A program made the translations under genes and the position numbers. Below, one piece after another: positions 4,597 through 63,100 of a stretch of 64,000 nt of DNA (the first letter of the stretch is position 1; every line of letters begins with the position of its first letter). Below the pieces are notes generated by a model. The model was given only the letters and a program-made list of their open reading frames with translations, was not told where the DNA came from and made no database searches. Origin of the DNA: Yuukianura sp. NJ FZ-2021 (taxonomy: Eukaryota); NCBI GenBank assembly GCA_046563655.1, contig CM102285.1:14260001-14324000 (forward strand). Reading direction: 5' to 3'.

Positions 4597-4631
4597 TTTG
4601 ATTTATTTTCGAAATAGCACCCAAAAATGCA

Positions 4632-20622: not shown

Positions 20623-21293
20623 TCTGTCCAAACTTCAAAGCTCAAAGTTCACAAAACTGGCGGTTGTCAACCGTGTAGCTGCTTTGAAGAGAAAGCACAA
20701 CAAAGAATTCCTTGGTAAAAATCAATAGTTGATCGTTGAAAGTTAAAATTATATTAAAATTATAGTGAAAATTAAAATTAAAGAGATTGAAGGTTAAAAT
20801 AAGTGAAAATTAAAGTGAAAATTAAAATTAAAGAGGGTGAAAATTAAAATGAGTGAAAATTAAAGTGTGAAAGTGAAAATTAGCAAACAGAAAGAGAAAG
20901 TTGTTAAAGAAAGCAGGAGAAAGTGACGCTAAAAATTTGAAGAGAAAAAAAGCGCGGGAATTTCATAAATCCATAAGAAAAAACAAAACAAAACAAAAAA
21001 CATGTGTTTGTTTTGACATTTTAGACTGACAAACGGTTTGAGCGTTGACTTTATAGTGTTCATGTGTTCTACGTCTTTAATTTAATTGATTTGTGCAATT
21101 AGTTTATTTAATTTATGTAAGCATTGTTGAAATTGGAACGACAATGCCCTTGCAATGTACTAAAGGTAGGTGGATTGATCATTGGGTATTTGTTCAACGT
21201 TTTTCTTTATTTTTGTGACGTTTTGTTTTTGTTTAGTAATGCATGAATTCAATTGGTTTTTGTGTTTCTTGTGTGACGGATTTCTGGTTGTGA

Positions 21294-25539: not shown

Positions 25540-25588
25540 TCTCAACGTTTCCAGTAAGCAATCTCGGACGTCGCAACTATCTAACGTC

Positions 25589-26215
25589 ATGAGTGGGAGT
25601 AGTCTGGCTGAAATTTTGAACAAAAAGCGACACGGCCTCAAACCTACTCAAACGAAAGTGACCAATCCAGACGGAAGTGTTCAAGTTTTTGACCAGGCTG
25701 GATCCACCGTTGTACCGTTACCAAGCAACCTTGTGCCAAATCAAACTGGTTACGGATTTGTCGTCGACACGAAACCGGATTTAAGTGTTGGAGAAATACG
25801 TCAATGGCTTCTGGTATCTTCCCAAGATGTTCCAGCTGATCCGAATCTTCTGAAAAATCTGTCCGTTACTCACGTTCTGTCACTCCTTCCAGGATTCCAG
25901 TTGGATCCAAGTAGTCAACCAATCAAGCATCTCAGTTTAGATCTTTACGATGACGAATCAAGTATTCTGGATTCCCATGTACTAAAACCAGCTCTAGACT
26001 TCATCAGCGAAGCAAAGTCCTCTGGTGGCCGAGTACTTGTTCACTGTAACGCTGGAGTCTCTCGAGCTCCTTCTGTTGTTATGTTGTACTTGATGGCTAT
26101 CGAAAAAGTGCCATTCGAGCAGGCGTGGGAGACTGTTAAAACTGCCCGCCCTTGTGCAAAACCCAATCGTGGATTCTGGAATCAACTCAAGAACTTTAAT
26201 TCTCATAGCTCATGA
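25589..26215 (+). CDS. DUSP19: Atypical dual-specificity phosphatase, single exon, 208 aa
   Basis: LKPTQTKVT..DG, GFVVDTKPDL, SQDV, VHCNAGVSRAP active site, KPNRGF. Confidence 0.9.
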   Translation: MSGSSLAEILNKKRHGLKPTQTKVTNPDGSVQVFDQAGSTVVPLPSNLVPNQTGYGFVVDTKPDLSVGEIRQWLLVSSQDVPADPNLLKNLSVTHVLSLLPGFQLDPSSQPIKHLSLDLYDDESSILDSHVLKPALDFISEAKSSGGRVLVHCNAGVSRAPSVVMLYLMAIEKVPFEQAWETVKTARPCAKPNRGFWNQLKNFNSHSS

Positions 26216-32500: not shown

Positions 32501-35500
32501 GCTGACAAATCAAACGCCTGCGGCGTCCACGTTTTAAAAAACTGTCAAGATTTCTCAACCTACTTCTTAAAAATCAGTTTTTCAATTGTTGTCAAAACAA
32601 AAAAAAAAGTATAAAAACCTTCAATTTCTGGTTCACACTTTAAAAAAAATTTGTTTTCGTGTCCTCATTTCCGATTCTCTGTTTCTAAACGTTCTAAATT
32701 TTATTGAAAACCGAAAACACATTTTGAAAAACACATTTTGAAATTCGAAATCAGATTGTTTGCCAAAAACACCAACAAACAAAACCTCCAAGAACTCTGT
32801 CTGTCAATCTCGCATCTTTACTAAAAACCAACCAAAGTTCAGAAAAAAAATTCAAAAACAAAAAATTTAAGTCGCACTAAAATCCTAAAGATGCAGAAAA
32901 GCCAAGTTTTTCTAGAAAATTGGGTTGTAAAGTTAGAGGTTACGAAAACTTTGAAAGTTTGGAAAATTGTAAACTGAAAAAGTAGCACTAAAACTTCCAC
33001 GGGAAAAGTTCGAAGAACTTAAAATTTCCTTCTGTTCTAATTTTTTGAAACAATGGTTTGTTCTGTTTTCCATTTTCAAAAATTTTGAACCTTTGAGACA
33101 ACTCAATCCACATGCGGTCGTAAAATTGAAAAGGTCAAACACTATGTTCTCCAAAAACAAAAAACAGGGTCACATTCACATCATTTTCAAACACTTCTCA
33201 CTAAATCCCTGAAACTAACTAACATTAGGCGCCTTTTGCACTTTGACGTACTCAAAGCTAACTTACTTTTAAACTAACCTAACATATTTTTGTGCAACAT
33301 CGAAACTTACAATGCTTCACCAAACCTGGAAAACAAAATTTCAAAAGAAAAAAATACACTAAACTAACATCCGAAATTTTGAAATTTAAAAAGCAAAAAA
33401 CTAGCCTGTGAAAAAAAGAAAAAAACATCGAAAATCTCAAAAAAGAAAAGGAAAATCCAAAAACACTTATCAATCAGGACAACATACCAACTATCGAGTA
33501 CTAAAATTCTAACACTAAAATTTTTTATTAAAATTCAATCGGCATCAATGCAGTCCCCCAGCAAATCGAAAAAAAAAAACAAATTCAAAAAACACGCTAT
33601 TTTCTTCGTTTTTAAAATGACGCCATTTCTAGTCCGTTTTATTTACACTTTACCTAAAAAATGCGCCCTTAGCACTAAAGTACTAAAAACTGCAGTGAGC
33701 ACGAGCAGTATTACTACTTACGTTATTTTGTACCTAACTTTTCAAATGTTAAAATGTTACGTTTTCTCCTTTTTAGTACGTAACTGGAAAACCCATCTGG
33801 AATTGACGTTTTTGGCTAACCTTCATCACTCATTTCTTGGAAAAGTAGTTACTCCCTCCGTTTCTTACTCCTTGTGAGTACATATGACTTCAGTTCACAC
33901 TCTCCGCTTTTCACTCTCACACCAAAACCAACTGATCACTGCACAGAATCATTAACTTTGAGCAATGACACAACGTCCAAAAAACACATTCAACCAAAAA
34001 ACCCTATTTATCATCATAGACTTTTTAGTCTTTTAGTCCTTCGTTTAGCTCGTGCTTTTTAACCATTTTTCATCTTTTGTAAAAATAAAAATACGCAACT
34101 CATCGCTTTCTAAAAACAGAACCAAGATCATGTTTTCACTTTTTAGTACAATTTTTAACTGAAGCAGAAAAACTAATGTGGATGTCTCAACTTTTCTGTC
34201 TTTGTCTACAAAGAATCGAAAAAAAGAGGCATTTCCGGTTTTTAGTCTCTAGAGAAAGCATTAACAAAATTTAAAATTTGAAAAAGCACTTTGGAGTAAG
34301 GTGGATTCCAAACGGAATTGAAATTCCGACATTCATTTGTTCATTTCCGGTTGTCTGTGTCAAGTGAAACAATCGACTTTCGGTGTTTTCTGTTAGCGGT
34401 CGTGCGGTTGCGTTAATTTTAAGAATTTGAATTCAAAGAAACTCAAATAGAATAAATTTTTTGGTTAACTTTTCAAACTTTTCTGTCAAAAGTTTTCAAT
34501 TTATGCGTCCTGGAAAACTCATTTCAAAATTTTCAATTTTTGAAGTCCGAAAATGCCGACTTCGTTAAAACTCAATTTTAAATTTCAGTTTGACCTTTTC
34601 CGCCATTTTTGACCGGGTAAAACTCAAAGATCAAAGTAACTTGAGAACAACTTTTTTTTTTGAAATTTTGAAACTTGAAATGACTCTATGGGGTAATTAA
34701 GACACAGTCGTAAGTGTCCCTTAGTCGCAGGCCCAAGGGCCCCCGTCCACTTTAACTACTTGACCAAGGGCCCCTGCCTCACTTGATTACTTTTAAACTA
34801 AAATCGAAAAGCACAAGATGTCAAAATCTGAAAAACTGAACGCGCGTGCCCTTTGAAAGCTTAAGTCCCCTTAAGTCTCCTTCATCTTTTCAGCTGTAAG
34901 ATGTTAAGGGCCCCTCATCTGCTCCACATAAGCTAAGCATATTTCCAGCGCTTGAGCACTGGAAGAAGCAGCGGCTGGTGGTAAATAGGAAACTAATCCA
35001 GGACGAGTGATCTTGTCTGTTGATGGACCGGAAGTGGAGGAAGATGATTCAAACTGTGCAGAAGATCAAGGGACATGGGCCCTTTGATTCATCTTTCAAA
35101 GATCCAAGGGCCCCTAGACAAAGGCAAGCCAAGTCCCCCACTATTTTTTGTTTTATCGTTACTAATCTCCTGCCTGCTTTCAAACAAAATGCGGCGGATG
35201 GTTGACATTCCTGGCAGCCGCGGATCGCTGAAGAGCTGGAGCAGATGTACTGGCAGCATCAAGCATCCAGCACCCAGTCAGCATTTTTTTTTCAAATGTG
35301 AAAGCGTAACCAGAGACCTTAGTCACCCTCGCATCATGTCACCCTGCATTAACTCTACACGCACAAAAGTTGCTAAAAACTAAGCCCGCTTTGGTTCGAA
35401 AAAAAAAAATTTCCCAAAAAAATTTTTTTTTCAAAAAAGTTTCAAAATTTCAAACTTACTTGAATAAGGTACACGCGGAAGTGAGGGTGACGAACAAAAT

Positions 35501-37811
35501 TTGCAGTACAGTTCACAATCCGTTCCAGTTCCAGGAAATTCTCTGCGGACATTAGACGAATTGGCTTGTTGCGGCTGCGCATGCCGATCGCTGGAACGAC
35601 GACCATCGCTGATTCCAAGTACTGAAGCGATGTCGCCAGCATTTGACGAAGACGTTGAAGGATGTCGGTTGAGTGTCACCGTGGATGCTTGGGATGGTCG
35701 CCGACGGTCGCCGGAGTAAACCGACAGTGGAATCGCTGTTGACGCTGATGAGTCACAAAACATGTCACTATAAGTGTGACTACTTGTTGTTGGCGAGTGG
35801 ACTTCGACGGTCGTCGTCTCTTCTGATGCTGGATCGCTGAAGTAAACATTTTTGTATTGTACTTGTGCTGATGCTGGAGCGGGAAAAGTTGGACGAGTAT
35901 GAATAGGAACCAAGTACCCACCGCCAGTACTACTGGCAGCATCAGTTACAACTTCCGGTGACAATACTGGCGAACTTGGACCGGACACAGAATGTCTCCG
36001 ATTGTTTGGCGAATTGAAAGTTTCTAAATTTTGGGTATTGTAGTAGAACGGAAGTGGATTTCTGCGATTCGGGAAAGTATTTGGCGGCGAGGGAACCGAG
36101 TACTTCCGAGGACCACGAAAACTGCCTTTGACATTGGAGTAAACCGGAATTGGAGTGACCATGTCCAGGTCATGTGACCTTTGACCTCCGGGAGTGACCA
36201 TGTCAAGGTCATGTGACCTTTGACCTCCGGGATTTTGAAAATGAATGTCTGGGTAATGCCCTTGGTCAGATCCAGTAGACGGTTGAGAATGCGAGGAACA
36301 ATGGGAGTCAGAGTCAACCGAATTGGTGTAAATCGATAGTGAAGAATCAGGGGTAAACGGGGGTGAGCTGATTCCGCTTGAAGTTGACCTTGACCGTGAC
36401 CCCTCCGAAACAACACTGGAACTGCCAGTACTTTTTGAAGAACTTTTAGACTTCCAGAAAAATTGTGTCAGACGTCCAAAAGGTGACGCTCGTTTTTCAG
36501 ATTTTGATGCTGCCGAAGTATTTTCTTCTGTTTCAGTAGCAGGATTAAGAAAAACGTCAATTTCTTGTTCCTCTATGACATCGTCCCGCGAAATTTCAAA
36601 ACGATGAAGAGGCACTGGCGGCGGGAGTTTGAAGAATCTTGGTCTGGGTGGTGCTGGGGCTATTGACCTCGGGATGGACATGACCGTTGACCGTTGTTGG
36701 TCCACTTCTGGTAGTCCAAATGATGTTGACTCCTCGTTGAAGGCTTCTTCAAAATAAGTAGGGTTATCTGCAAAAGAGATAAACTTTCGATTAATTACAA
36801 CTTTTACACAAAAAATCTTGACTTTTAAGCGCGCGGAGAGTCTTTGTAAAACTAAACTTTCGCAAGGATTGCGGTTACCTTGTTGTCTCAAACGCATTTT
36901 CAGTTCTTTTAAGGTTAAACTGTTAAAACTAAACTTTAACTTTTTAGAAATGTTAAAATGTTTAAGACATTAGATTCCTTTTTGCCAAGACTTGAAGACT
37001 TGGACTGTTCAACTCAAGATCTGAATCTGAAGTGAAAAGAATTTGAACAAAACAGAAACTGAGTCGAACACCCACACAAGTGCATTAATCCTAAGCACTT
37101 TTTCTTTACTCCTCCGTAAAATCCTAACAAAAATACGCTTAGAAAACCATGTGCCTTGCCAGAAGCCACTGATGATCATGGTGACGACGATCCCCCAGTT
37201 TAGAAAATAAACTTTTTAGAAAAACGGGAGCATGTCTCTCGAGAGACGGATAAGATCGTCGGGAGACATGGTTCTCTGGCTCCCATATTTTCAAAAGAAT
37301 CTGCAACGTACAACATTTTAGTCGATTAGTCACTGACTTAGTACTCAGAGTTGGAGTATGAATTAGTGCGAACTTACTAATGACGCATCACTTCTGGCTG
37401 GCACACAGCTTTTCATCCGAATCGGATCAAAACCGGAGTACAAGGTTCAGTTGAAACTGAAAAACTTGCAAGGACAACCAACTGATTAATTGTAAACAAC
37501 TACTTACTCAAAACAGTTGTCGTTTGTGGTTGCTCTTGAATAGTATTGGCAGCAGTAGTATTCTTTGGACTTGGAATGCTTGGCAGAATATCTTCAATAT
37601 CAAATGTAAACTTGAGTGGAGGTTTCTGCAACATGGACGGTTCCTTCTCCATTTTCATTGGTTCTTGTAGACCAACAGGATTTTCAACAGGAATGTCAAC
37701 AGGATGGTCGACAGGAATGTCAACAGGATGGTCGACAGGAATGTCAACAGGAATGTCAACAGGATTGTCAATGTCAGAGACAGTGTCCAGAATGTTCCCA
37801 GAGTCAGCCAT
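26513..37811 (-). CDS. BCAP/BANK1/Dof(Stumps)-related adaptor; exons ~37811-37508, 36767-35460, 28073-27946, 27835-27563, 27372-27068, 26992-26513
   Basis: TIR-like segment (AKIQIVVISHSFL...RVIAILLSGV) followed by DBB-like segment (FSIFPKKV...VNPYSGIIQMP...NLGSKALKY); matching splice phases link it to the upstream Ser/Pro/Tyr-rich exons across a ~7.4-kb intron. Confidence 0.65.
36156..36232. repeat. 39-bp coding tandem duplication (PGGQRSHDLDMVT x2)
   Basis: Direct repeat visible in DNA and in the 35431..36897 ORF. Confidence 0.85.
37674..37770. repeat. 12-bp coding minisatellite (PVDI/PVDH)
   Basis: ACAGGAATGTCA/ACAGGATGGTCG units. Confidence 0.85.
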
Positions 37812-39779: not shown

Positions 39780-41291
39780 TTACAAATGTGATGTCTCTGG
39801 TTTTTCTTTTTCATCTTGAACTTGAATGTACAAATTCTTGTGCTGGAGTTTGAACACTTCATTGCCGATGGAAGTGAATCCTGGTACCAGGTAGCGGGCA
39901 AAGAGTTCGCAGCATTTTGGATCCTCAGGAAGATACTTGCGAAGTATATCGATAACGGGAGGTTTGTGACTATGGATACTGCTTGGAACACTGACAATTA
40001 CTTTCATTTTTCTTAAATCTGACAGAATTGAATCGCTGGAAGAAGTTGCTACCAAAGCATTTGAGCTTGATTCTGGATTACGTTCTGGAATTTCCGTTTT
40101 CACATCATGGGAGGAAGTTTTGTACTGCCCGATGACCAGGATTTCATACGGTTGCTTCTTGTTAATTGGCTGGAATGGGAGAATCGGTAGCCCAGATTTC
40201 GTCACCTGAGATTAAAAAATGAATTATAATAATAATATAACTATAATAATTATATTGTAATTAATTCTATTAGCTTAGTATTAATATAAAACGACTGTCC
40301 AATCCTTACTTTGACCCAGTACCAAGTAGTGAGGTAGGTGACGTGCCAAGCTGGAAATATTTTTTGGACAAGATCATTATGATGAGCAGCAGCATTGGTG
40401 CACCACACGGCAATCAAGGCACCGTCATTACAAATCCTGTCTATCCTCATTCCTTCCAGTTGCAGATTGTCAATCATCTCGTACCTGAAAATGAAAAGCC
40501 GAAGTTTAGTCAATCAACTACTTAATTGGTCAATTAGTTTTTGCAATTAATCAGAAGACACAGTACCCGCCACCTTCTGCATGCCTTCGTTTCCTGTTTC
40601 TCCAAATGTATTTGTTCATCCATGGAGGATCCATTAGAACAAAGTCAAAAGATTCTTTTCCAACTAAATCCTCCTCCAGTATTCTGGAAATATCTCCGCA
40701 GTAGAAGGCCGTTCTTAGTGGAAACAGAAATTCTTGACCAGCGATGCAGTGCAAAACAGTATAATCAGTAGTGTTGGCTCCGTTTAGCTTTACTTCGGAA
40801 TGAAAAATACTTGGGTGAGGAATTTTAAGAAATTCAGCTGCTGCACGACGTGCAATGAAATTGTTTTTCCTATCTACTTCTTGTTCCTGAGGACCTTGGT
40901 AGGTATCGTTTGATTTTGAGTCGTCGTCGGAAAAGCAGTTTACAGAGTGTCCAATTGCGACAATTTCACGGAAAAGCCGATGCAATTCTGTTTGAAAATC
41001 TGGCCAAACGTTGACTTTCTTGGAAGGTGACAAAACGTCATGGTCATCGAAGTTCTGTGCCTGGTCAGCGTTAGCAGGAAGAAGTGTGTCCTTTTCCTTA
41101 GTAGTTTTGTTTTTGATAAACTGGTCTTTGATGTCAAATAGATTAGGATTCAGTTTGAAAAGTGAACAATTCATACCGGAAACAGGGAGGTCATCTTCTT
41201 GAGCTCTGGACACGTTCAATATTTTCAGTGAATCAAAGAACTTCGGATGAGAAATGATCCAACCTTGGTCACACTCCAAAAGTATTGACAT
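39780..41291 (-). CDS. METTL4: MT-A70 family N6-adenine methyltransferase; 3 coding exons
   Basis: MSILLECDQGWII, FDFVLMDPPWMNK, VWCTN, WYWVK, KKQPYE, SVPSSIHSHKPP, ELFARYL..GNE. Confidence 0.93.
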
Positions 41292-42423: not shown

Positions 42424-42683
42424 ACACTAATTTTCAAATTTTTGGAATTTTGAATTGGATTTTTACTTTTTTGAAAATTGAAATTGCAAATTGCGAAATT
42501 CACAACACATTACACAGAGAAGAACGGAGACAAAGAATCATCTGTTTAGTGGTAAGTTTTGGAATAATTAAATTAATTGCGCAGGTACAAGCACATGAAG
42601 TGAAAACTGAATCGTTAAGTAGTGTACCAATTGACTAATTTGCAATTGACCAAATTTCTTACAGAAGGTTGGAAATTTGAAGT

Positions 42684-43989
42684 ATGGATCCACCGAAGGG
42701 AATGGCGATGGACTGGATGTACAAACCGGCTGCACTGGTTAATCGGGATGAGTACTTACTTGGCCGAAGTGTGGACAAATCGTTTGACTTGCTCGAATCA
42801 GTTGAAAAAACTGGCACTTTTAATTACGCCGACGAAGTTGAAAAAGGTACCGATTTACTACATGCTACCTTGATTTTGAATTCAGATCCACTGAATCCTC
42901 TCATTTCAATTCTAGATTTGACCCCACTTTCCATCTTTGCTCCTACTCGAAGTGGCCCGGTCGATGTCATTCAGAAAATCAAGGAAGATCCGTTGTACCA
43001 AATCCAGAAAAAGGAAGAAGAGAATTTGAAGCAGTTACTCAAAAACCCCGTTCGAATGAAAATGATGCGTCAAATTAGTACAGAACTACAAGAAAGACAA
43101 CGAAGACTCTCAGAATCTTCATCTTCAACGTCAAAACGTAGAAGGAGACATTCGAAACGAGACTCCAGTTCAGACTCAGATTCAGATGACGATGACCCCA
43201 AGAGGTTGAATTTAAAGAAGGTCAAATCGTTCCAAGATATTGACAAATTGATTTCAGAGAAGCTAAAGTCTTTGAAGAAACACGCATCAGACGTGGAATC
43301 CGACTCGTCTGAGGAGGATAACAAGAAACACGTTACCAAGAAACATCATCATCATCACCACGATAAAGATAAGCACGATCACCGTCCAGATAGAGGTAGT
43401 GACCGACGTGATCGATACCGAGAAGAACCTCGGCATTACCGTCCAGAAAAACGAAGGTCAAGAAGTCGGAGTCGCGATAGAAACCGTGATCGGTACAACG
43501 GTGACCGTGGGAAGAGGTCAAGAAGTCGCAGTGGCAGCAAAGACCGTCATGTTAAGGACCGTGATCGAAAGCCAACTGAAAAACCAAGTTCATCTCGGAA
43601 CAATTTCACAAGTTACAGAAAACCGGCACCGCCGGTACAAAAACGAGCACCGTTGGATGAAGCAGAACTGGAAAAGCGCAGACAAGAAATGATGTCAAAT
43701 GCAAAATGGCGTGACGAGCAACGGACGAAAAATGTGACCAAGTACAGAGAAGAAGAAAAGAAAGAAGAAGAGCAACGCACTAGCAAACATGACCCAGATT
43801 TTATACGGTAACGTTAAAAAATCATGAATTTCATTAAATTAAGCAATTTATGATCAATTACTTTGTCGTTACAGGAAACAATTAATTGAAGCAGCCAATA
43901 CTGGCAGTGTTGAGAAGCGAATCAAGTCCAATTCCTACAATATTCAAAAGTCCTACTCCGCCATGAGCCAGAATTTTGCCAAAAGGTGA
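42684..43989 (+). CDS. CWC25: Pre-mRNA-splicing factor CWC25 homolog (apparently N-terminally shortened)
   Basis: DWMY..VNRDEYLLGRSVDK, KIKEDPL, LLKNPVRM, ELEKRRQEMMSNAKWRDEQR; last exon 43875-43989 ends NFAKR. Confidence 0.92.
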
Positions 43990-44833: not shown

Positions 44834-47800
44834 ATGACTACCTTCGGTCTTCTTCATCCGAAGTACATCTTTGGACTGAATGCTGACTGCAAAGCGACCA
44901 ATGTCTTTTTCCTGGACGCAAGTACAATCATCTACCCCGCGGGGAACACCGTCGTCATGCTCAACATGGACCAAAAGACTCAAACGTTCTTACATGGAGT
45001 TGAGAAGAACAAGGGCGTCACGGCCTTGACCATTTCTACTCTTCAGTACCAAAAACACACTTTTCCTCCAAAATTTTATTTTGAATTTCATTAATTTTTT
45101 TTCAAATTTTGAATTTTTAGTTCAATTGCTGCAGTGGGGCAAGTGGGCGACAAGCCTCTGATTAGCATTTTCGATTTGAAGCAAAACAAGAGACGAAAAA
45201 CGCTGATTTTCGGTGAGACTTTGGCCACGGAGTACGTTTCACTGTGTTTCACTACTGATGGACTCCACCTTGCATCGCTCAGCGGTAATAATCACAAGTT
45301 AATTAACAAAATACAAAGTTAATTAACAAATTACAAAACTAATTAACTTTTTTAATTACGTTTTCAAGGGCCCCCGGACTACACATTGTATTTCTGGAAG
45401 TGGGACAAGGGTCGCATGGTCTGTCAAGCCAAAACGACTGGAGGACTTGGACCGGTCTATGAGGTGCTAAAACTCAAATTGAAATTTGGAAATTGTGATT
45501 TTGAAATTTTGAAAATTTCAGATCAGCGCCAGTCCGACGGAGAACAACGTGATGTGTGCGATTGGACGAGGATCGTTTCGTTTCTTCCGTGCTGGAGAAG
45601 GGTTCATGAAGCCCTTTGGATTCCAGAAGGGCGACTCCTATCACTTCCTGTGTCACGCTTGGCTGGGCAAAGGTGATCGACTCATTGCTGGAACACGGGA
45701 TGGGCACTTGATGTACTTCGAGCGTGGGGACTACCGTTGTGAAGTACCCGTTCCATCCATGGCTGAACTCAATCTAAGCAAGTAAGTTTTTCATCAATTA
45801 AATACTTAATTAACAAATTAACTGCACTTCTGGGTTGAAATAAGGTTTGACGATCCTCATTGTATCCCCACAGTGTAGCCACTCCGGCCATTTTATGTGA
45901 ATACTGTGTTGGTGGATATCCACTTTTTCGATATTTCATCCAGCGGATATAGGGTTTCGTCCAGTTCTATCCACTTTTTCGATATTTCATCATTCAGCGG
46001 ATATAGGGTTTCGTCCAGTTCTGTCCACTGTTTCGATATTTCATCGAGTGGATATAGGGTTTCGTCCAATTTTATCCGGTTGAAATGGCTGGATAAATTT
46101 GATACATCCAATTAAATCCGGATATTTCCACAAATTTCGACTGAGATGGAAGAAACGTGTTATACATCTACCAACACTGTGTGGCTGCAATAGGTGGCGA
46201 CATTTGTAGCCATTAGAACCTAAAAAAAACCTAAGAACTTAAAGTGGCAACACAAAAATCCACCAATTGTCGCCGCAAAGTGACTAAAACTTGCTGCTAC
46301 AATGATAATCGTTAAACCTTACTCCAACCGCACTTCCGGATTGATTTTTGTTAAATTTTGGTGATTTTTAGTAAAACAGGGACGAAAGATGGGCGAGACA
46401 CGTCTGTTGTGAACTTGGCCAATCTGATGGGCTTGGCAACTGGAGCTGGAGGTGCTGGAGATGCTGAGGAACGCCGTGCCAGTGTTGGTTCCAGAAAGTC
46501 CACGAGCACCATCTTTGACGCCAAAGGAGTCACGGCCATCACGGTTTACTCTAAAGTTAGTCAAGTTTTGTAAAAATTAGGCCAACTAATGTTAATTTTT
46601 AGTGAAAAAGTTCAGTTTTTGAACATTTTGAACATTTTTTTAGGGTTTTGCCATTGGATACGGTGCTGGTTATGTGATTGTCTACGAAGAGCAAGTTACT
46701 TACGAGAGTCAAGAAGATCGCTTTAAGCCTGTGCATGTCATTCAAGTGCCGTTTCACTCCGGTGACCCAGCGGACAAGGTCATTCGGGCACTTGCAATCA
46801 ACTCCACAGAAGAAACTTTGGTAGCCACAACTGCCAATTCACAAATTCTCTACTTTTCACTGCCCAGTGCCGAGATCAAGGTAAGAAATTTTCAATATTC
46901 AAAAAATAGAAATTGAATCTTTCATTTATTTTTTTAAAATTTTGAAATTTTTCAGGATCCGAATGAAATGTACTTTGAGTACGCCTCTGCTTCGTTCCAT
47001 TACGGAGCCATCATTGCCCTGGACGTGGCCATTCGGAAGTCACTTTTTATTACTCTTGGAGCAGACAAGTTTATTCGTGTTTGGAATTACGCGACGATGA
47101 CACAAGAAGCTGCGAAGGAATTCCAGGAAGACATTTACTGCATCTCTTTTCATCCTACTGGACTCTTCATCTTGGCAGGATGCAACGATAAGATCAGAGT
47201 CTTTGCTATAGTGATGGACGATATTAGAGAAATCAAGGACTTCCATGTGCGTGGATGCAGAGAATGTGTTTACAGTAACGGTGGACATCTTTTTGCAGCA
47301 GCCAATGGCGGCATTATTCAAATGTACACGACTACTTCATTTGAAAATATTGGCAACATGAAGGGTCACAGCAATAAGGTGAGACAAACAGCAAAAAAAC
47401 GGCAAACAGCAAAAATATCGTTTCATACTTGAGAATGTCTAATTTTAGAATTTTAAATCTTGAATTTTTGAATGAACAAGAATTTTTTTTTAGATTCGGC
47501 ATCTCCGATTTTCGCCTGATGACACTACGCTAGTTTCTGTTGGGGCGGACGGAGCCATTTATGAGGTTACACAAACGTTTTTGAATTTGAAAATTTTGAA
47601 ATTTTTTTTGAAAATGATGTTTGATGACCTTTGACCTTTGCCCTTCCTGTTTCAGTGGGATGTCGGAACGATGAGACGTGAATCGGACTATGTTGAACGT
47701 GGAACAGATATGTTGGACGTAGCAGTTTCGCCTGATGGAAAAACACATTACGCCATTACTGCAGCCCGATTTGTCAAGGAAGTCCAAATCCAAGATGGAA

Positions 47801-52017: not shown

Positions 52018-55000
52018 ATGCCAAGCTACTATGTCAACAAGGGATTCGACACGGACAACGAAGTTCAGGTAACTTTTGACGTTTTGAACTTTCGACTTTT
52101 TGACCTTTGACCTCAGATTTTTGTGTTTTAGTTGAAGGATGTTAGCGGGAGTTACAGAAATGGAGTTGAGCAGAATCCGCCTAGGAAAAGCATTATCGGC
52201 GAAACGTATTGTGTGGACGAGCACAGAGTGCCGCTGGAAGACTTGCTCAAGCGATACGCCTCAAATGTGTCCAGGGTAAGCTTTCGTTTTTTGAAATTTC
52301 AAAATTTTGAAAATTTTTGGGAAAATTTTCATTTTTTTTTGTCGCAGGGCCTCAAAGCAGACCAAGTTGAACAGAACAGAGAAAAACATGGACGAAACGT
52401 TTTGACCCCACCGAAGAAACCGTCCAGAGCGTTTGAATTTGCAAAATGCTTGATTGGCGGGCTGTGTGCTTTGCTGTGGGGCTGTGCCATCCTGAGTATT
52501 GGATCCTACTCGTCCCAGTATTTCTACACCGACAACATTTCCACAGACAATGTAAGAAGCTCCAGGAATTGAATTTTTCGAAATTTTGAAAAAATATTAA
52601 TTTTGAAGATTTTGATTTTCCTTTTGTGTTTCAGCTTTTCCTGGGCATCTCCATTCTCATTGTCATCTGCGTGTCAGCTTCGTTTGAATTCTACCAAAAA
52701 TTTAAATCAGACAGAATCATGCAGTCGTTCAAAAACATGGCGCCAAGATTCGCCAAGGTCACGCGGGATGGCAAAATGGAAGAAATTCCTGTCGACGATT
52801 TGGTCGTCGGTGATATTGTAGACATTAAATATGGTAAAAATATAAAATGTGTAATTATACAAAATATATTAAATATTATAATATATATTAATGATTTTTT
52901 TCTACTCAGGTGACCTGATTCCCGCCGACGTTCGGATAATTGAATGCATTGACTTTAAGGTGGACAACAGTTCGCTCACGGGGGAGTCCGAACCGCAACG
53001 ACGCTCTCCCGAATGTACCGACGACAATCCAATGGAAACTAAAAACTTGGCGTTTTTTTCAACGAATGCACTGGAAGGTCATGCCAAAGCACTTGTAGTT
53101 CGGACGGGGTCAAGGACATTCATGGGCAATTTGGCGTCACTTGCCAGTACAGTTGACTCTGGTCCGTCGCCGATCCAGAAAGAAATGTCACGATTTGTGA
53201 TCATCATGACCTTTAGGTCACTTCTGTTCGGTGGAACGTTCTTTATTGTGGCCATGTGCATGGGATATGCCTGGTAAGATCAAAGGTTAAAAATTTTGAA
53301 ATCAAAACCATTTTCAAATAATATGGCATGCATAAAATTCAAAATTACCTTTTCAATTTCCTGTACTCTTCTAGGCTCGATGCAATATTTTTTGTAATTG
53401 GCATTGTAGTGGCCAACGTACCGGAGGGATTGTGAGTCCGAAATTTCCAATTTTGAAGCGCATGGAATGCAAAATTTTTGCATTTTGTTTTTAGAACGGT
53501 GACATTCACGATGATGTTGGCGCTGACAGCCATGCGCATGGCCAGCATCAACTGTTTGGTGAAGAATATCCAATCAGTAGAGACTTTGGGCGCAACGACA
53601 GTAATTTGCAGTGACAAAACTGGGACATTGACGATGAACAAAATGTCCGTTGCACATTTGTGGTACAATAACGACACGCTGGAAGCCGACATCAGTGAAA
53701 CTGTCACCGGGAAAGTCATGGAGGCTGATGATGCTGGATTCCGAGCACTGGCAAATGTCGCTTGTCTTTGTTCAAAAGCCATTTTCAGACCAGGAGACGA
53801 AAATTTACCGGTTTTGAAGCGGTTTGATTCAAAAAAAGTTTAAAATTTTGAAATTTCAGGTTTTTGAATTTTGGATTTCTCATTTAGGGAAGTGAATGGA
53901 GATGCCAGTGAAGCAGCGATTTTGAGGTACATGGAAGACGTTATGGGAAGTGTCGCCAAGTACAGAGCAAAGTATCCGAAACTGATGGAGATTCCATTCA
54001 ATTCTCGCAACAAATATCAAGTATCTATTCATGACATGCGGGATCCAAATGATTCTCGTCATCTTTTGGTCATGAAGGGAGCTCCAGAGAAGGTCATTGC
54101 CTTGTGTGACCAAATCCTCATAGGATCAACGACTCATCCACTCACAGCTCACTGGAGAAACGAATTTGAAAACGTTTATATTTCGATGGGTGGACGAGGT
54201 GAACGAGTGCTTGGATTCTGTGACTGTCTCCTGCCATTGGACAAGTATCCGGTTGGATACAACTTCGATCCGGACGATCCAGTGTTCTTGACTGAAGGGC
54301 ATTTCCGATTTGTTGGTCTCATTTCAATGATTGACCCACCAAGACCTGCTGTTCCTGATGCAGTGGTAAACGTTTCAAGAAGAAAATCAACGTTTTTGAA
54401 ACGTTTTGTTGAGACGTTTTTGAAACGTTTTATGGAAACGGTTTTGAAACGTATGGAAACGTTTTTGAAACGTTTTATGGAAACGATTTTGAAACGGTTT
54501 ATGGAAACGATTTTGAAACGTTTTATGGAAACGTTTTTGAAACAGATGGAAACGTTTTTGAAGCGTTTTATTGAAACGTTTTTGTTTCGTAGGCTAAATG
54601 TCGAGGTGCTGGAATCAAAGTGGTGATGGTGACTGGCGACCATCCGATTACGGCAAAAGCAATCGCACGTTCAGTTGGTATTTTATCGGAAGGGAACTTG
54701 ACGATAGAAGAAACGGCTCAGCGGCACGGTGTCACCGTGGACGAAATTGATCCAAATACAATCAAAGCCGCTGTGGTCACTGGAGCCGAACTTCAACTTC
54801 TGAGTCAAGAGCAACTTCAAAACGTTTTGACCAATCACAAAGAAATCGTCTTCGCTAGAACTTCTCCAGAACAAAAGTACACAATTGTCGAAGCGTTTCA
54901 AAATTTGGGTCACGTTGTAGCTTCAACTGGTGACGGTGTCAACGATTCTCCAGCTCTAAAGAAAGCAGACATTGGTAAGCATGTCAGAGCCATGTAAGGA

Positions 55001-56304
55001 TGTAAATCCGGATTTTTGACGGAATCGGATTTTTCAAAATCCGAATTTCAAATCCGTCAAAATCCGAAATCCAGATTTCTAACAAGCGGTGACAGATAGA
55101 TCTTCTCTTCAGCACTAAAACCCTGACATGACCATGACCTATATTAACTTAAACGTCACATTTTCGTTTCAGGAGTGGCCATGGGAATCAGCGGTAGTGA
55201 AGTATCGAAAGAAACTGCTGACATGGTCCTGATTGACGACAACTTTACTTCAATTGTTGCTGGAGTTGAGCAAGGACGTTTGATTTTCGACAATTTGAAG
55301 AAACTAATTTGCTACAACTTGGCCGACAACATTGCTGAAATGTACAGCGTTTGGGTGTTTATCGTGTTGGGATGTCCACTGCCCATGGGCACAATTGCCA
55401 TGTTGCTCAGTGTGTGTTGTACTGACGTGTATCCAGCCATTTCCATTACACATGAAAAAGCAGAAAGTGATATCATGAAACTGACACCCAGAGATCCCAG
55501 GAAGGGCAAACTGGTCACTCCGCAGTAAGTATTGCACTAAAAATCGTTTTCAGAAACTTCAAATTTTTAAACAAGTTTGGCAACTTTCTAGGCTGTTGTC
55601 CTACACTTACGGACAAACATCGGTGTTTGAACTTGCTTCTGGATTCTTTTCGTACTATGTCGTAATGGGTTACAATGGATTCAGTCCTTGGAGACTCTAC
55701 AACTTAAACTCCGCCTGGACCAACAATGCCATCAATGACCTCCAGGATTCCTATGGCCAAGAGTGGGCATACAGTTCACGAGCTGAACTGGGATTTGTGG
55801 CACAAACGTGCTTCTTTGTGTCCATCGTCATGACTCAAATGTCCAATGTCATCATTTGCAAGACGAGACGCTTGACACTTTGGCAACAAGGCATGACGTA
55901 AGACCTAAAAGTGTAAAAAATTTTTATGAATTTTAAAAATCTACATGCTCAAATTCAAAATTGGATTTTTGTTGACCTGGAGAGCAGAAATTGGACAATG
56001 AACTTTGCTCTTTGCGTGGAGGTTGGGCTAATGTGCTTCCTCGTCTTCACTCCCTATGTCAATTCAGCAGTAAATCTAAGACCAATCAGGTAACTGAATT
56101 CAAAAACTTGCAAAAAACTTTTTAAATTAATCGATTGATTGGAGTTAATCATGAATTATATTGATTGTTTTTGTTTTCAGATGGGAATGTTTTGTTCCGC
56201 CACTTCCGTTTATGTTACTCATGATTCTGTATGATGAAGCCCGCCGTTTCTGTGTTCGTCATACTTCGGAGGGGTCATGGGTACATGGAGAATTTTACAC
56301 TTAA
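52018..56304 (+). CDS. P-type IIC ATPase alpha subunit (Na+/K+-ATPase alpha-like, divergent), ~13 exons
   Basis: [78 protein letters not shown]. Confidence 0.95.
54385..54582. repeat. 21-24-bp minisatellite in an ATPase intron
   Basis: (GAAACGTTTTTGAAACGTTTTATG)n-like, ~8 units. Confidence 0.9.
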
Positions 56305-56485
56305 GAAAACGTTCAAAAAATGTGTAGTTTAGCTCAAGATTTTCAATAAATTTTTTTCACAATTTACAATTTTTTTCAAAACTTACAATTTGCAAATCAT
56401 AAAAGTCAAATAGAACAAAAACTTTTTTCTCCCAAGCGAATTTACAAATCCAATTTGTAGGTTGTCTGATTGCCAAGTAGTTGTT

Positions 56486-57212
56486 GGAAAAAGTGAAATA
56501 TTTAGTGTCTATTGTTTAATTACTATTTGAATGTATTGTTTTAATTGTGAGTTTAATCATGAACTTTGCTCCAACAATTAATTAATTGGTCGAAGTAAAC
56601 TTTGGTCCGCCGCCTGTCCCCACCCGTTCAAATTTTCGCGCTGCTTCTATTGTACCCACCCATTGTCCCCACCGGGTGGAGACAAATGTCTCCACTTGGT
56701 GGGGACAAATTTGTACCCACCAGGCTTACACCGAGTCCCCCTAGCGGCTGAAGTGGAACTAGCGAATTCGAGCTGGCAACGTTGCAGCATTACTCCATTG
56801 TACCCACCCAGGGCAAATTTAATCAACATAGCGAAACTCAATTTAAATTAAACCTACAGACGTAATCAGTATTGCGTGCTTTACCAAACCTAACGCCGCG
56901 CCTTCGGCGCGGGAAAATATAACAGGATTTACCTAATCAAAAAGGTAACAACGTTGCCAGCTTGAATTCAGAGGTTACTGTATTGCCGCTAGGTGGATGT
57001 ACTGCTTTTGGCTGTGGTGGGGACAAATGTATCCATTCAGTGGGGACAATGGGTGGGTACAATGTAAGCAGCGCGAAAATTTGAACGGGTGGGGACAGGC
57101 GGCGGACCAAGGAAAAAGTGAAATATTTAGTGTCTATTGTTTAATTACTATTTGAATGTATTGTTTTAATTGTGAGTTTAATCATGAACTTTGCTCCAAC
57201 AATTAATTAATT
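56486..57212. repeat. 102-bp direct duplication flanking the foldback element (56486-56587 and 57111-57212)
   Basis: GGAAAAAGTGAAATATTTAG...CCAACAATTAATTAATT present twice, apparently identical. Confidence 0.9.
56602..57110. mobile_element. Foldback/MITE with ~70-bp near-perfect TIRs
   Basis: TTGGTCCGCCGCCTGTCCCCACCCGTTCAAATTTTCGCGCTGCTT... vs ...AAGCAGCGCGAAAATTTGAACGGGTGGGGACAGGCGGCGGACCAA; nested inner inverted repeats. Confidence 0.9.
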
Positions 57213-57634: not shown

Positions 57635-59260
<1,626 letters not shown>

Positions 59261-60117: not shown

Positions 60118-63100
60118 ATGTTTGGTTTTGGTAAAAAGAAGGCTCCTCCGCCTTCACAAGAGAAACGTGCGAGAACGTCTGGAGGAAGAACGAAGGAAGA
60201 TTACAAAGACGATTTGGCCAAGGTAATTAAGGATTTTGATTAACTGACTTTCGATTAGTCGGTTTTTCCAATCTTTTTGTCTTTTGTCAGCTCGGGTTGC
60301 TAGGAATCGGAGTTGATGACTTTGATATTGACAATGCTGGGAACGACTTGGATTCAGAACCAGATGAAGCCGATTTGGAAGACGAATTGCTGGCAATCCT
60401 TGGTCAAGATGGTGGCTCAACAGACATGTTACTTCCGGAGGTCAAGCCGAAACCAACTCCAGTCCGTCAAGCACCTCCACCCACGAGCCAGTACAACTCA
60501 GGACCACCAGAAGCAGTTCCTCCACCAGAGACATCCAGTGAATCGATTTTTAAAGCACCACCTCCTCCCTCGACCATTCAAGAAGCACTGGATCAACGAT
60601 TAGCAAAGTATAAATCGGAATTGGACAAGGCAACTACTGCCAACGAAGGACCAAGTAAAGTGAGACGAATAGGACGAATAGTAAAGCAGTATGAAGATGC
60701 TGTCAAGGATTATAAGAAAGGACGTCCAGTTGCCTTCGATGAACTTCCAACACCGCCTGGATATGGTCCAATTCCTTCCGATGGAAGTTCACAACCTCAG
60801 TTACAACAATCTCCTCCAGCTCCGGACGTACCAGTACCACCTCCACGTCAAAAATTAGTTGAAGTTTCTGACTTTCATAAGAATGAAACAGTCGATAACG
60901 AACCTGGTCCACCTATGATATCATCCGATGAACCACGGCGATATCCAAGTCAGCCCCAACCGGAACCTGAAGTGACCTTGGAGAATGCCCAACTAAACGT
61001 TGTCTTAGGAAGACAAAAACAGCTGAAAGAGGCTGCAGTGGAAGCAAAACGAAACGGAGATATTGAATTAGCGAAGGAGTATTTACGAGCTTCGAAAGGA
61101 CTTGACACGATGATTCAAAGTTTACAAGGCGAATCATCTGTAGAGGTAGACATACCCACGGTATGTTTCTATGTGTGCAATAAAATTCAATTACTAATTG
61201 AATCGCTGAATTATGAAATCTTGATTTTGTTTTTAGCTCCCCACGGTGGAATCCGTTTTCATCAGGTTGTCGGAGATGAAGGCAGTGAGAGACGAACCAG
61301 TCAGTAGTGGTGGAATTCAAGTTGAACCAATACAAACGACGGCTCCACTTTTACAGCCGGAGCCACCAGCTGACCCTCCAACTGATGCCAATCTCGAGTC
61401 TATATTCAATGCTCCTCCACCTCCGAAAACAATCGCTGAAGCGCTTGATCAGCGTCTGGAGAAGTATAAATCCGAAGTCCAAAAGGCCAACGAAACAAGT
61501 AACTCTGGAAAAGCTAGAAGGATGGGTCGGATTGTCAAGCAATACGAAGAAGCAATCGCTGCTCACAAGAAAGGCCGTCCAATTGCCTTCGATGAACTGC
61601 CGACTCCTCCTGGATTTGGTCCTATTCCTACTGGAGCTCCGCCTCCAACCACCGCTACGCCTGCTCCAGCATCAGCATCAGTGTCTGGTTCGTCAAGTTC
61701 TCCAGCACAGCCAGCAGCATCAGCATCTTCAGCAGAAGCTCCTAGAGTATCCCCGGGTCAAGGTCACACTGGTTCGATCAACCGCGGTGCTAATAAACCC
61801 CAGACGAAATTGACGTTACAAGAGAAACAACTGCAGGCAATACTGGAACGACAGAAGAAATTCAAAGAAGCTGCGCTAAATGCCAAGAATCGCGGAGATA
61901 TTGACCAGGCTAAGGAATTTCTTAGAACTGCCAAAGGATTTGACAAGTTGGTTCAAGCATCTGAAGCGGGACTGCCAGTAGATATGAACACAGTACGTAA
62001 TTTCAAAATTTGAAACAAAATTTTCAAATTTTTAAACATTTGGAATTCTTTGGATCACAATTTACGATTTTTGAATTTCCAGTTGCCTTCACCTCCGGAA
62101 GCTGTGGACGCATTGAAGTTAGAAACGAGTGATGACTTTGAAATTGTACGTGCCGGTGATTGCATTCCGCCGCCAGAAGGAAGTGCTGCGGAAGTATTTT
62201 CCAAATTAGAACACGATTTGCGGGAACAGCTAAAAGTAGGTTTTAAAAACCGTACAAACTAAGTTTAGTTTTCACTTCTTTCCATTTTTTGTGGTTCTAA
62301 AAAGTTATGTTCTTTACCACTTTTTGTATAGATGTGTATGACCCATCGGGAACATTTTAAGAACATGGGAGACGTCGCTTCTGGAAATCGATTTGAAAAA
62401 ATGGCGGTAGAAACTAAAAAGGATTTAGACGCTTTGAGAGTTTGCATGAAACAAAATGGTGAACTGCCAAAGTACCATTACGAAAACCGGATTTTCAGCA
62501 TCACAGAGTACGTTTCAATATTTTTGCAAGTGACAATGTCGTCAATGTCATTTTTGCTTGTGCCAATGTCGTAAACAACATTGATTTTGAAATGTTTTGA
62601 CTTGTTTTTCCAGGTGTAACTCGGATTTAGCTGACGACGAAATAGAAATCAGTATTCTGAAAGGCATAAACTACAAAGTTCCAAATCCTACTGACGTTGA
62701 CACATTTGTGAAGGCTGAACTCCCATATCCTTCTGTAAGTACAGAATCTATCACTGATGACATGGTCCACTAAATACTTGAAATTCGTTGATCCTCAACC
62801 TGATGTACATTTTGACTGTGGTGATTAACGATTTAGTTTTGTCTGGTTCATGGACACAAAAATCAAACAAGTTAAATTTTCAAATAATAAGGATTTGAAT
62901 GTTGGATTTGAAACGTTTTGTTGTTGGTTTTAGGCAGAAGAGGCCCAGATGAACAAGACTGGTGTGATTAGAGACACGAATAATCCAGATTACAACATGA
63001 CCTTCAAAATGAAGATCAACAGGACAGCTAGACCATTTCATCGATTTATCCATCGACATGGGGTCAAGTTAGAAGTTTGGTCAAAGGGGTAAGTAATGTG

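What the first reader, a model, noticed from the sequence alone, without database searches (positions are those of the whole stretch)
55295..56304. Na/K-ATPase-like pump with rewired ion-binding sites
Seen vs canonical alpha1 (numbering recalled). M5 YTLTSNIPE becomes YNLADNIAE (T774A, S775D, P778A). M6 CIDLGTD becomes LSVCCTD (D804V). M8 QWAD becomes QMSN (D926N). C-terminal KETYY becomes GEFYT. PEGL, E779, D808, DKTGT, TGES and GDGVND are intact and the frame is open. Known: S775, D804 and D808 coordinate Na+/K+; D926 and the terminal YY support Na+ site III; Asn at the 926-equivalent occurs in electroneutral H/K pumps. Inference: an active P2C ATPase with different ion selectivity or stoichiometry, with the acid lost at 804 perhaps relocated to 775.
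Basis: partly seen in the sequence, partly recalled or inferred. Interest (0 to 1): 0.75.

Follow-up and report, generated by a model that had tools for sequence, protein, structure and literature searches.

The report
Springtail-type sodium-pump relative with rewired ion sites
This is an intact 13-exon gene for a sodium/potassium-pump-like ATPase from a little-known, apparently springtail-only family that keeps the ATP-driven engine but has moved or lost key ion-binding acids, so it probably pumps ions with a different number or kind per cycle than the ordinary pump.

Summary
Splicing 13 GT-AG exons (52018-56304, + strand) gives a 1029-aa P2C ATPase alpha subunit. TGES, DKTGT, GDGVND, PEGL, N776, E779 and D808 are intact. 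It carries T772N, T774A, S775D, P778A, D804V, D926N and a broken C-terminal Tyr pair; numbering was checked against pig alpha1 chains.

These are not private changes. Asp775, Asn776, Ala778 and a non-Asp residue at 804 occur in 18 of 18 members of a clade. Every named member comes from springtails (Orchesella, Folsomia). All 114 canonical animal alphas compared keep S775, P778, D804 and D926.

Two further springtail proteins are intermediates: they have D775 and N926 but still keep D804. They are sister to the clade (SH-aLRT 99), so the new acid on M5 seems to have come before the loss of the M6 acid.

In the derived clade the Na+ site III supports (E954, terminal YY) drift.

Best reading: an active, beta-dependent pump without Na+ site III and with a rebuilt site I/II, hence altered stoichiometry or selectivity. 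Function and expression of this copy are untested. I found nothing on springtail pumps in four literature searches.

The parts
52018..56304 (+). Whole coding region of the alpha-like P2C ATPase gene (13 exons, 1029 codons plus stop)
   Evidence: spliced model, 12 of 12 introns GT..AG; tblastn of the model back on the window finds only this locus.
52018..52068 (+). Exon 1 (ATG at 52018; in-frame stops upstream)
   Evidence: The N-terminus is the least certain part; an upstream 5' exon is not excluded.
52132..52275 (+). Exon 2
52348..52551 (+). Exon 3 (Cation_ATPase_N, M1)
   Evidence: PF00690, E 2.6e-11
52635..52833 (+). Exon 4 (M2, start of A domain)
52910..53273 (+). Exon 5 (A domain with TGES at 52978-52989, M3)
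   Evidence: PF00122, E 4.3e-21. TGE in 7 of 7 clade sequences covering it.
53375..53431 (+). Exon 6 (M4; VANVPEGL, with E327 codon at 53424-53426)
   Evidence: E327 in 7 of 7
53495..53821 (+). Exon 7 (rest of M4; DKTGT at 53613-53627)
   Evidence: aligned to 3wgu_A 332-437. DKTGT in 8 of 8.
53888..54365 (+). Exon 8 (N domain, KGAPE)
   Evidence: PF13246, E 1.3e-21. KGAPE in 10 of 10.
54593..54974 (+). Exon 9 (P domain; MVTGD; GDGVND at 54929-54946)
   Evidence: PF00702. GDGVND in 17 of 17.
55173..55524 (+). Exon 10 (M5 and M6). M5 is YNLADNIAE at 55313-55339, with D775 at 55325-55327. M6 is LLSVCCTD, with V804 at 55412-55414 and D808 at 55424-55426.
   Evidence: aligned to 3wgu_A 725-839. D775 18 of 18, N776 18 of 18, A778 18 of 18, E779 17 of 18, D808 18 of 18, no Asp at 804 in 18 of 18.
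55592..55897 (+). Exon 11 (M7, DSYGQEW loop, M8 with Q923..N926 at 55836-55847)
   Evidence: aligned to 3wgu_A 842-942. N926 in 9 of 10; the one Lys sits in a poorly aligned tail.
55988..56089 (+). Exon 12 (M9; Glu at the E954-equivalent is kept in this copy)
   Evidence: E954-equivalent kept in only 3 of 8 clade sequences
56181..56304 (+). Exon 13 (M10 and C-terminus ...WVHGEFYT, stop at 56302-56304)
56345..56350 (+). AATAAA polyadenylation-like signal 41 nt after the stop codon
   Evidence: Read directly; function inferred.

Best explanation
The gene encodes a working, beta-subunit-dependent P2C (Na/K-pump-type) ATPase of a springtail-type family.

Shown by sequence:
- The ATP-driven E1/E2 machinery is intact.
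- The M4 main-chain site, E327, N776, E779, T807 and D808 are kept.
- The carboxylate that canonical pumps share between sites I and II (D804) is replaced by Val.
- A new carboxylate sits one helix over, at the position of the K+ ligand S775.
- The only carboxylate of Na+ site III (D926) is Asn, and the C-terminal Tyr pair is broken.

Inferred:
- Site III is not used.
- Site I is rebuilt around D775, N776 and D808.
- Site II is weakened.
- The pump therefore moves fewer cations per ATP (at most two out, one or two in), or different cations, than the 3Na/2K pump.

The exact ions are unknown.
For: 1. Intact gene: 13 exons, 12 of 12 GT-AG introns, no stop, AATAAA after the stop codon.

2. All catalytic motifs are invariant in every clade sequence that covers them: TGE 7 of 7, DKTGT 8 of 8, KGAPE 10 of 10, DPPR 10 of 10, GDGVND 17 of 17. 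The DSYGQEW loop is kept.

3. The odd residues are clade-wide: D775 18 of 18, A778 18 of 18, position 804 = V14/T3/M1 (0 of 18 Asp), N926 9 of 10. By contrast, 114 of 114 canonical alphas have S, P, D and D at these positions.

4. Coordination table of PMC5026471 (passages read). In E2, K+ site I uses T772 O, S775 OG, N776 and D804, and site II uses V322 O, V325 O, E779 and D804. In E1, site III uses Y771 O, T774 O, Q923 and D926.

5. Site-III supports drift only in the derived clade. The E954-equivalent is kept in 3 of 8. The C-termini read GEFYT, TEFNY, NHLDT, TEFLT and TELNY.

6. The intermediates P0407 and P0408 (D775, N926, D804 kept, FYY kept) are sister to the clade at SH-aLRT 99.

7. 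A side chain of this size is tolerated: S777N (rat numbering) is transport-active (PMC10812997, passages).

8. There is an arthropod precedent for a reduced-stoichiometry pump made by site substitutions: Artemia alpha2KK, 2Na:1K (PMC10756188, abstract).

9. Relatives P0003, P0005 and P0012 run without gaps across 4 of the window's intron positions on contigs of 1531, 1234 and 1837 nt. They look like spliced transcripts.
Against: - There are no expression data for this copy and no functional data for any member.
- D804 substitutions cripple cation binding in canonical pumps (experiments cited in PMC5026471).
- Bulky Ser777 substitutions abolish transport (PMC10812997). Asp itself was not among the seven mutants.
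- The clade evolves much faster than canonical alphas: end branches are 0.35-2.3 against 0.03-0.2. This could mean partly relaxed constraint.
- One member (P0121) has E779Q and lacks KTRR. One Folsomia member has PENL and GADV.
- No 3D coordinates were available, so the geometry of D775 is inferred from position alone.
Confidence: 0.55

Rival explanations
1. It cycles or binds partners but does not transport. It would be a regulatory or scaffolding alpha-like protein whose cellular role is independent of pumping.
For: - D804, regarded as essential for cation binding, is absent.
- The clade evolves fast.
Against: - Ion-pocket residues are strictly kept: E327 7 of 7, N776 18 of 18, E779 17 of 18, D808 18 of 18, and the new D775 18 of 18.
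- All catalytic motifs are invariant.
- This is hard to explain without cation-coupled catalysis.
Confidence: 0.15
2. It pumps a different substrate class, for example H+, NH4+ or a divalent cation. This would use the carboxylate cluster D775, E779 and D808 on M5 and M6.
For: - There is a new acidic residue in the pocket, and site III is lost.
- P2-type relatives with one site or with other ions exist (PMCA and H/K-ATPase are mentioned in PMC10812997).
Against: - No residue pattern matches a known Ca2+, H+ or H/K site. Position 775 is Asp, not Lys, and position 804 is Val, not Glu.
- This is pure inference.
Confidence: 0.2
3. It is an ordinary 3Na/2K pump isoform and the substitutions are functionally neutral.
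For: - Overall 54-55% identity to canonical springtail alphas.
- Same architecture.
Against: - Four positions invariant in 114 of 114 canonical alphas are all changed.
- D926 and D804 are direct ligands (PMC5026471).
- Canonical alphas exist alongside this family in the same springtail species: P0344/P0345 and P0347/P0349/P0361.
Confidence: 0.05
4. It is a decaying duplicate (pseudogene in the making).
For: - Long branches.
- No RNA run could be listed for this stretch. That result carries no weight either way.
Against: - A 1029-codon frame stays open across 13 exons with perfect splice sites.
- Motif conservation holds across 18 sequences that are only 45-83% identical to the window's protein.
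Confidence: 0.05

Closest known systems
Canonical animal Na+/K+-ATPase alpha subunit (ATP1A1 / insect ATPalpha; PDB 3wgu, 2zxe, 7e1z)
   Same: - P2C architecture, all catalytic motifs, PEGL, N776, E779, D808, Q923, DSYGQ loop.
- Best hits among solved structures: exon 10 E 7e-38 to 3wgu_A, exon 11 E 1e-26.
- 54-55% identity to springtail canonical alphas.
   Different: - T772N, T774A, S775D, P778A, D804V, D926N and terminal Tyr to Thr.
- M4 reads PEGLTVTFT instead of PEGLLATVTV.
- Lies outside the starred clade of canonical bilaterian alphas in 3 of 3 trees.
Gastric H+/K+-ATPase alpha (ATP4A; PDB 5ylu, 6jxh)
   Same: - P2C pump whose selectivity and stoichiometry differ from Na/K through changes at the 775- and 804-equivalent positions.
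- Similar scores to exon 10.
   Different: - ATP4A has Lys at 775, Glu at 804 and Asp at 926 (5 of 5). The window has Asp, Val and Asn.
- A grouping with ATP4A in one tree (95) vanished when the intermediates were added.
Artemia Na+,K+-ATPase alpha2KK (PDB 8k1l; PMC10756188)
   Same: - An arthropod alpha paralogue that exists beside canonical alphas, with substitutions inside the ion pocket and a proven reduced stoichiometry of 2Na:1K (abstract).
- Best PDB hit of exons 11-13.
   Different: - alpha2KK inserts two lysines at Asn positions in M4 and M5 and keeps D804 and D926-type residues.
- Here a carboxylate is moved and another is neutralised, and no tethered cation is added.
Springtail 'intermediate' alphas P0407 (Orchesella dallaii) and P0408 (Folsomia candida)
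   Same: - D775 and N926, and P778 lost.
- Sister group of the window's clade (SH-aLRT 99).
   Different: They keep D804, T774, the canonical M4 and the C-terminal FYY.
Other divergent alpha paralogues (C. elegans CATP-1; firefly P0123; protist P2C-like lineages lacking D804)
   Same: - Show that P2C alphas diversify.
- Several protist lineages also lack Asp804 and have Asn926, for example YLLAGSFSE / IVICxxTD / QxGNL in 8 of the 150 representatives, plus P0139 and P0156.
   Different: - None has Asp at 775. Among the 150 representatives, only P0121 (Orchesella cincta) has it.
- None of them is characterised, to my knowledge (recalled).

Membership tests
P-type ATPase, subfamily P2C (Na/K- and H/K-ATPase alpha) | Phosphorylation motif DKTGT and A-domain TGES | tested here: met
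   both present at 53613-53627 and 52978-52989.
P-type ATPase, subfamily P2C (Na/K- and H/K-ATPase alpha) | Domain architecture Cation_ATPase_N, E1-E2_ATPase, Cation_ATPase, Hydrolase, Cation_ATPase_C | tested here: met
   exon by exon. The exon 10 piece of Cation_ATPase_C scores 24.6, below the 27.3 cut-off. The exon 11 piece scores 29.3, above it.
P-type ATPase, subfamily P2C (Na/K- and H/K-ATPase alpha) | Closest solved structures and tree position are Na/K and H/K alpha chains | tested here: met
   (the top 36 chains are all Na/K or H/K alphas; SERCA is far lower). Trees.
P-type ATPase, subfamily P2C (Na/K- and H/K-ATPase alpha) | Beta-subunit-binding SYGQ motif in the M7-M8 loop (role of the motif recalled) | tested here: met
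   DSYGQEW present. Actual beta binding not testable; no beta gene in the window.
Canonical 3Na/2K Na+/K+-ATPase | Site I/II ligands S775 and D804 | tested here: not met
   Asp and Val, against 114 of 114 canonical with Ser and Asp.
Canonical 3Na/2K Na+/K+-ATPase | Site III carboxylate D926 and C-terminal Tyr-Tyr | tested here: not met
   Asn926; the C-terminus ends ...FYT.
Canonical 3Na/2K Na+/K+-ATPase | Electrogenic 3Na/2K transport, ouabain-type inhibition | not testable with these tools
   Needs expression and electrophysiology.
H+/K+-ATPase (ATP4A type) | Lys at the 775-equivalent and Glu at the 804-equivalent | tested here: not met
   Asp and Val here; Lys and Glu in 5 of 5 ATP4A.
Springtail D775 group, derived (D804-less) clade | M5 x-A-D-N-x-A-E, no Asp at 804, D808 kept, Asn926, M4 PEGLxVTFT-like | tested here: met
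   The clade has SH-aLRT 100 in 3 of 3 trees.

The most novel reading that the evidence does not exclude
Springtails evolved, in two steps, a new cation-binding architecture inside the Na/K-pump scaffold.

Step 1: gain of Asp775 and loss of the site III acid (D926N).
Step 2: loss of the 'essential' Asp804.

The resulting multi-copy family would have a stoichiometry or substrate unknown among P2C ATPases, for example one or two ions per ATP or a non-Na/K cation. Such a pump might serve ion and water uptake from very dilute soil films. That last physiological link is speculation.
Probability: 0.35. Interest if true: 0.8.

Novelty: new variant of a known kind. Interest (0 to 1): 0.6.

Why it matters
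Asp804 and Asp926 are textbook determinants of Na/K-pump ion binding. This is a natural, conserved family that drops both and adds an acid at 775, and it has living intermediates. That makes it a ready-made experiment on how stoichiometry and selectivity are encoded in P2C pumps, comparable to Artemia alpha2KK or the engineered H/K-to-Na/K conversions. It also shows that database labels 'Na/K-ATPase alpha' on several springtail proteins probably hide a functionally different pump, which matters for springtail osmoregulation and ecotoxicology.

Tried and rejected
- Whole genome of the window: none is held, so paralogues and a beta subunit in the same genome could not be sought. Within the window there is no second copy and no beta gene.
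- RNA evidence: no RNA holder was listed for 52018-56304.
- DNA of relatives for dN/dS and intron comparison: the single metagenome scan with P0003 returned only two distant loci, L001 and L002, at 36-40% identity. No dN/dS could be done.
- Earlier findings of this scan: nothing.
- Origin of the family:
  - Free trees put it outside canonical bilaterian alphas.
  - AU tests do not clearly reject a springtail-specific duplication (p 0.045; p 0.063). The groups were named after seeing a tree and long branches are involved.
  - A grouping with ATP4A is treated as long-branch attraction, because it disappeared.
- Structure prediction was not run. The tool returns no coordinates, so site geometry could not be measured.
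- The representative library collapses most of the clade into other 50% clusters. It therefore cannot show that the family is absent elsewhere.
- Literature:
  - Searches gave nothing on springtail pumps.
  - One search gave nothing on arthropod P2C ion-site variants.
  - One search gave only two papers, on Drosophila ATPalpha disease models and on the invertebrate pump and neurotransmitter receptors.
  - No supplementary files were consulted.

Full report
GENE MODEL

The + strand between 52018 and 56304 holds 13 exons. All 12 introns start with GT and end with AG and are 63-227 nt long. Spliced, they give 3090 nt and a 1029-aa protein without an internal stop. In-frame stops lie just upstream of the ATG, and an AATAAA lies 41 nt after the stop codon.

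Exon by exon, Pfam finds Cation_ATPase_N, E1-E2_ATPase, Cation_ATPase, Hydrolase and Cation_ATPase_C. A tblastn of the model back on the window finds no second copy.

The frame there is open only after three introns are removed.

OBSERVATION

I checked the numbering by aligning single exons to solved structures:
- Exon 10 residues 1-115 align without gaps to pig alpha1 (3wgu_A) 725-839.
- Exon 11 residues 1-101 align to 842-942.
- Exon 7 residues 3-108 align to 332-437.
- The last exon aligns to the shark C-terminus.

This gives the following residues:
- M4: VANVPE(327)GL.
- M5: Y771, N772, L773, A774, D775, N776, I777, A778, E779.
- M6: V804 and D808.
- M8: Q923, M924, S925, N926.
- M9: a Glu at the E954-equivalent position.
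- C-terminus: ...GEFYT against ...ETYY.

TGES, DKTGT and GDGVND are intact.

WHAT IT BELONGS TO

A word-seeded search with exon 10 found 16 proteins (P0002-P0017) at 65-84% identity, ahead of all canonical pumps. All 16 share the odd M5, M6 and M8 residues.

The named ones are all springtail proteins: Orchesella cincta (P0007 'alpha-B', P0009), O. dallaii (P0008) and Folsomia candida (P0015). The other 12 are unnamed metagenome or Logan proteins.

An exhaustive HMMER search of 1.84 billion representatives added P0121 as the only one of the 150 best with the signature. It is a third O. cincta protein.

Canonical alphas of the same species also exist: P0344/P0345 in O. dallaii and P0347/P0349/P0361 in F. 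candida. They are 54-55% identical to the window's protein. The window's protein is 62-70% identical to its nearest clade members over long alignments.

The window is a gene-dense animal region carrying innexin, Wnt, JmjC and other genes. That it comes from a springtail is inferred only from this gene's relatives.

CONSERVATION

I compared two sets: 18 clade sequences (the window plus 17) and 114 canonical alphas. The canonical set is the 114 of 116 retrieved sequences that carry YTLTSNIPE; two were dropped for a variant M5.

Fifty-seven positions are fixed differently in the two sets. The key ones are:

| Position | Clade | Canonical |
|---|---|---|
| 775 | Asp, 18 of 18 | Ser, 114 of 114 |
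| 778 | Ala, 18 of 18 | Pro, 114 of 114 |
| 804 | V14 / T3 / M1 (no Asp in 18) | Asp, 114 of 114 |
| 926 | Asn, 9 of 10 | Asp, 114 of 114 |
| 774 | Ala, 16 of 18 | Thr, 114 of 114 |

- E327, 7 of 7.
- N776, 18 of 18.
- E779, 17 of 18.
- T807, 15 of 18.
- D808, 18 of 18.
- Q923, 9 of 11.

Catalytic motifs are invariant wherever they are covered.

By contrast, elements that in canonical pumps support only Na+ site III drift within the clade. The E954-equivalent is kept in 3 of 8 sequences. The C-termini read GEFYT, TEFNY, NHLDT, TEFLT and TELNY.

INTERMEDIATES AND ORDER OF EVENTS

A profile search with C-terminal halves of clade members brought in P0407 (O. dallaii) and P0408 (F. candida). These have:
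- M5 YTLTDNI(S/A)E.
- A canonical M6, ILCIDLGTD.
- M8 CQWAN.
- A canonical M4.
- A C-terminal FYY.

Among the 459 proteins stored at that point, the motif scan found Asp at 775 only in 18: 16 clade proteins plus these two (the scan missed P0121, and the window's spliced protein is not among the stored ones).

In a 26-row tree (IQ-TREE, PMSF, quick search), the two intermediates are sister to the D804-less clade (SH-aLRT 99). That clade itself has support of 100.

With canonical pumps as the outside state, parsimony puts S775D, D926N and the loss of P778 on the common stem. It puts D804V, T774A and the M4 changes on the stem of the derived clade. The new acid therefore came before the loss of the old one.

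ORIGIN

Free trees place the whole springtail group outside the starred clade of canonical bilaterian alphas. However:
- The branches are long.
- One tree pulled the clade to ATP4A, and this vanished once the intermediates were added.
- AU tests holding the group together with canonical springtail alphas gave p 0.045 and p 0.063.

An ancient paralogue and a fast-evolving springtail-specific duplicate both remain possible.

MECHANISM

Shown: the engine (phosphorylation, dephosphorylation, nucleotide and hinge motifs) and the beta-binding loop are intact.

From the coordination table in PMC5026471 (passages read):
- D804 is a ligand of both K+ sites in E2.
- S775 OG is a ligand of K+ site I.
- D926 is the carboxylate of Na+ site III, together with Y771 O, T774 O and Q923.

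Inferred:
- With N926, a broken Tyr pair and clade-wide drift of E954, site III is not used.
- With V804 the bridging carboxylate is gone.
- D775 can supply a carboxylate to site I, next to N776 and D808.
- Site II is left with E327, E779 and M4 carbonyls.

The most likely outcome is a pump with fewer or different ions per cycle.

Two papers make this plausible:
- Ser777 mutants (rat numbering) with small side chains, including Asn, remain transport-active, and occupation of site II alone can trigger phosphorylation (PMC10812997; abstract and passages). Asp itself was not tested there.
- Artemia alpha2KK is a natural arthropod pump with 2Na:1K stoichiometry caused by pocket substitutions (PMC10756188; abstract).

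Points against:
- D804 mutants of canonical pumps lose cation affinity (cited).
- The clade evolves fast.
- Some members (P0121, P0015) carry further hits in the pocket.
- Nothing is known about expression of this copy.

EXPRESSION HINTS

Three relatives (P0003, P0005, P0012) align without gaps across four of the window's intron positions, on contigs only slightly longer than their ORFs. They look like spliced transcripts, but this is unverified.

Several other relatives stop aligning at residue 853, which is the exon 10/11 junction, or carry 20-29-aa inserts (P0006 and P0014 at window junctions; P0004, P0009, P0011 elsewhere). That pattern is expected for unspliced genomic predictions.

COMPARISON AND NOVELTY

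The protein is a P2C alpha by every test. It fails the defining ion-site features of both the canonical Na/K pump and the gastric H/K pump. ATP12A was not examined.

Other P2C-like lineages without Asp804 and with Asn926 exist in protists, but none has Asp775.

Four literature searches found nothing on springtail pumps or on this residue set. The database proteins carry only automatic 'Na/K-ATPase alpha' names.

I rate it a new variant of a known kind. It would be of real interest to pump biophysicists, and the function remains open.

Noticed in passing
window 54389-54584 (intron 8 of the ATPase gene): Tandem array with period 24 (AACGTTTTTGAAACGTTTTATGGA), 8.4 copies, 84% matches. It fills most of the longest intron. 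Read in frame it mimics an open reading frame (FLKRFMET...), which could mislead gene callers.
   Followed up: partly
window 56486-57212 (just downstream of the gene): Two perfect 102-nt direct repeats (56486-56587 and 57111-57212) flank a unit with 94-nt inverted arms (56602-56695 and 57017-57110, 90% complementary). It looks like a foldback or MITE-like insertion with an unusually long duplication.
   Followed up: partly
window 35434-36969 (- strand): A 512-aa stop-free frame with no Pfam match at E 1e-5. It is the longest open frame in the window and is unexplained.
   Followed up: no
window 3895-4602 (- strand): An endonuclease/exonuclease/phosphatase domain of the kind found in LINE retrotransposons (PF03372 at 2.1e-10; PF14529 at 5.7e-06, below its cut-off).
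   Followed up: no
window 8093-10028, 12024-17698, 20182-20634, 25535-26212, 39783-40211, 42681-43808, 46938-47429, 58518-59026, 60240-62010: Neighbouring genes by Pfam on open frames: innexin, Wnt, Tctex-1, dual-specificity phosphatase, MT-A70, CWC25, WD40, JmjC, CC2D1 (DM14). No Na/K-ATPase beta subunit and no second alpha copy.
   Followed up: partly
P0121 (Orchesella cincta, third clade member): It carries E779Q and lacks the KTRR motif after M8 (reads KGHTAS). It has by far the longest branch, 1.6-2.3. It may be a further functional shift or decay.
   Followed up: partly
P0180, P0184, P0194, P0206, P0235, P0253, P0263, P0268 (representatives; P0180 is a eukaryote transcriptome protein): A separate P2C-like lineage with M5 YLLAGS(F/W)SE, Cys at the 804-equivalent (I(V/L/Y)IC.. 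in 7 of 8; S-I-C in P0206), and Asn at the 926-equivalent. P0139 (Andalucia) and P0156 also lack Asp804. Loss of Asp804 together with Asn926 has happened more than once.
   Followed up: no
P0123 (Ignelater luminosus, firefly): A divergent insect alpha paralogue (M5 YTLASNMPE, M6 LCIDLLTDM) that keeps D804 and D926. It sits unresolved near the base of the animal pumps.
   Followed up: no
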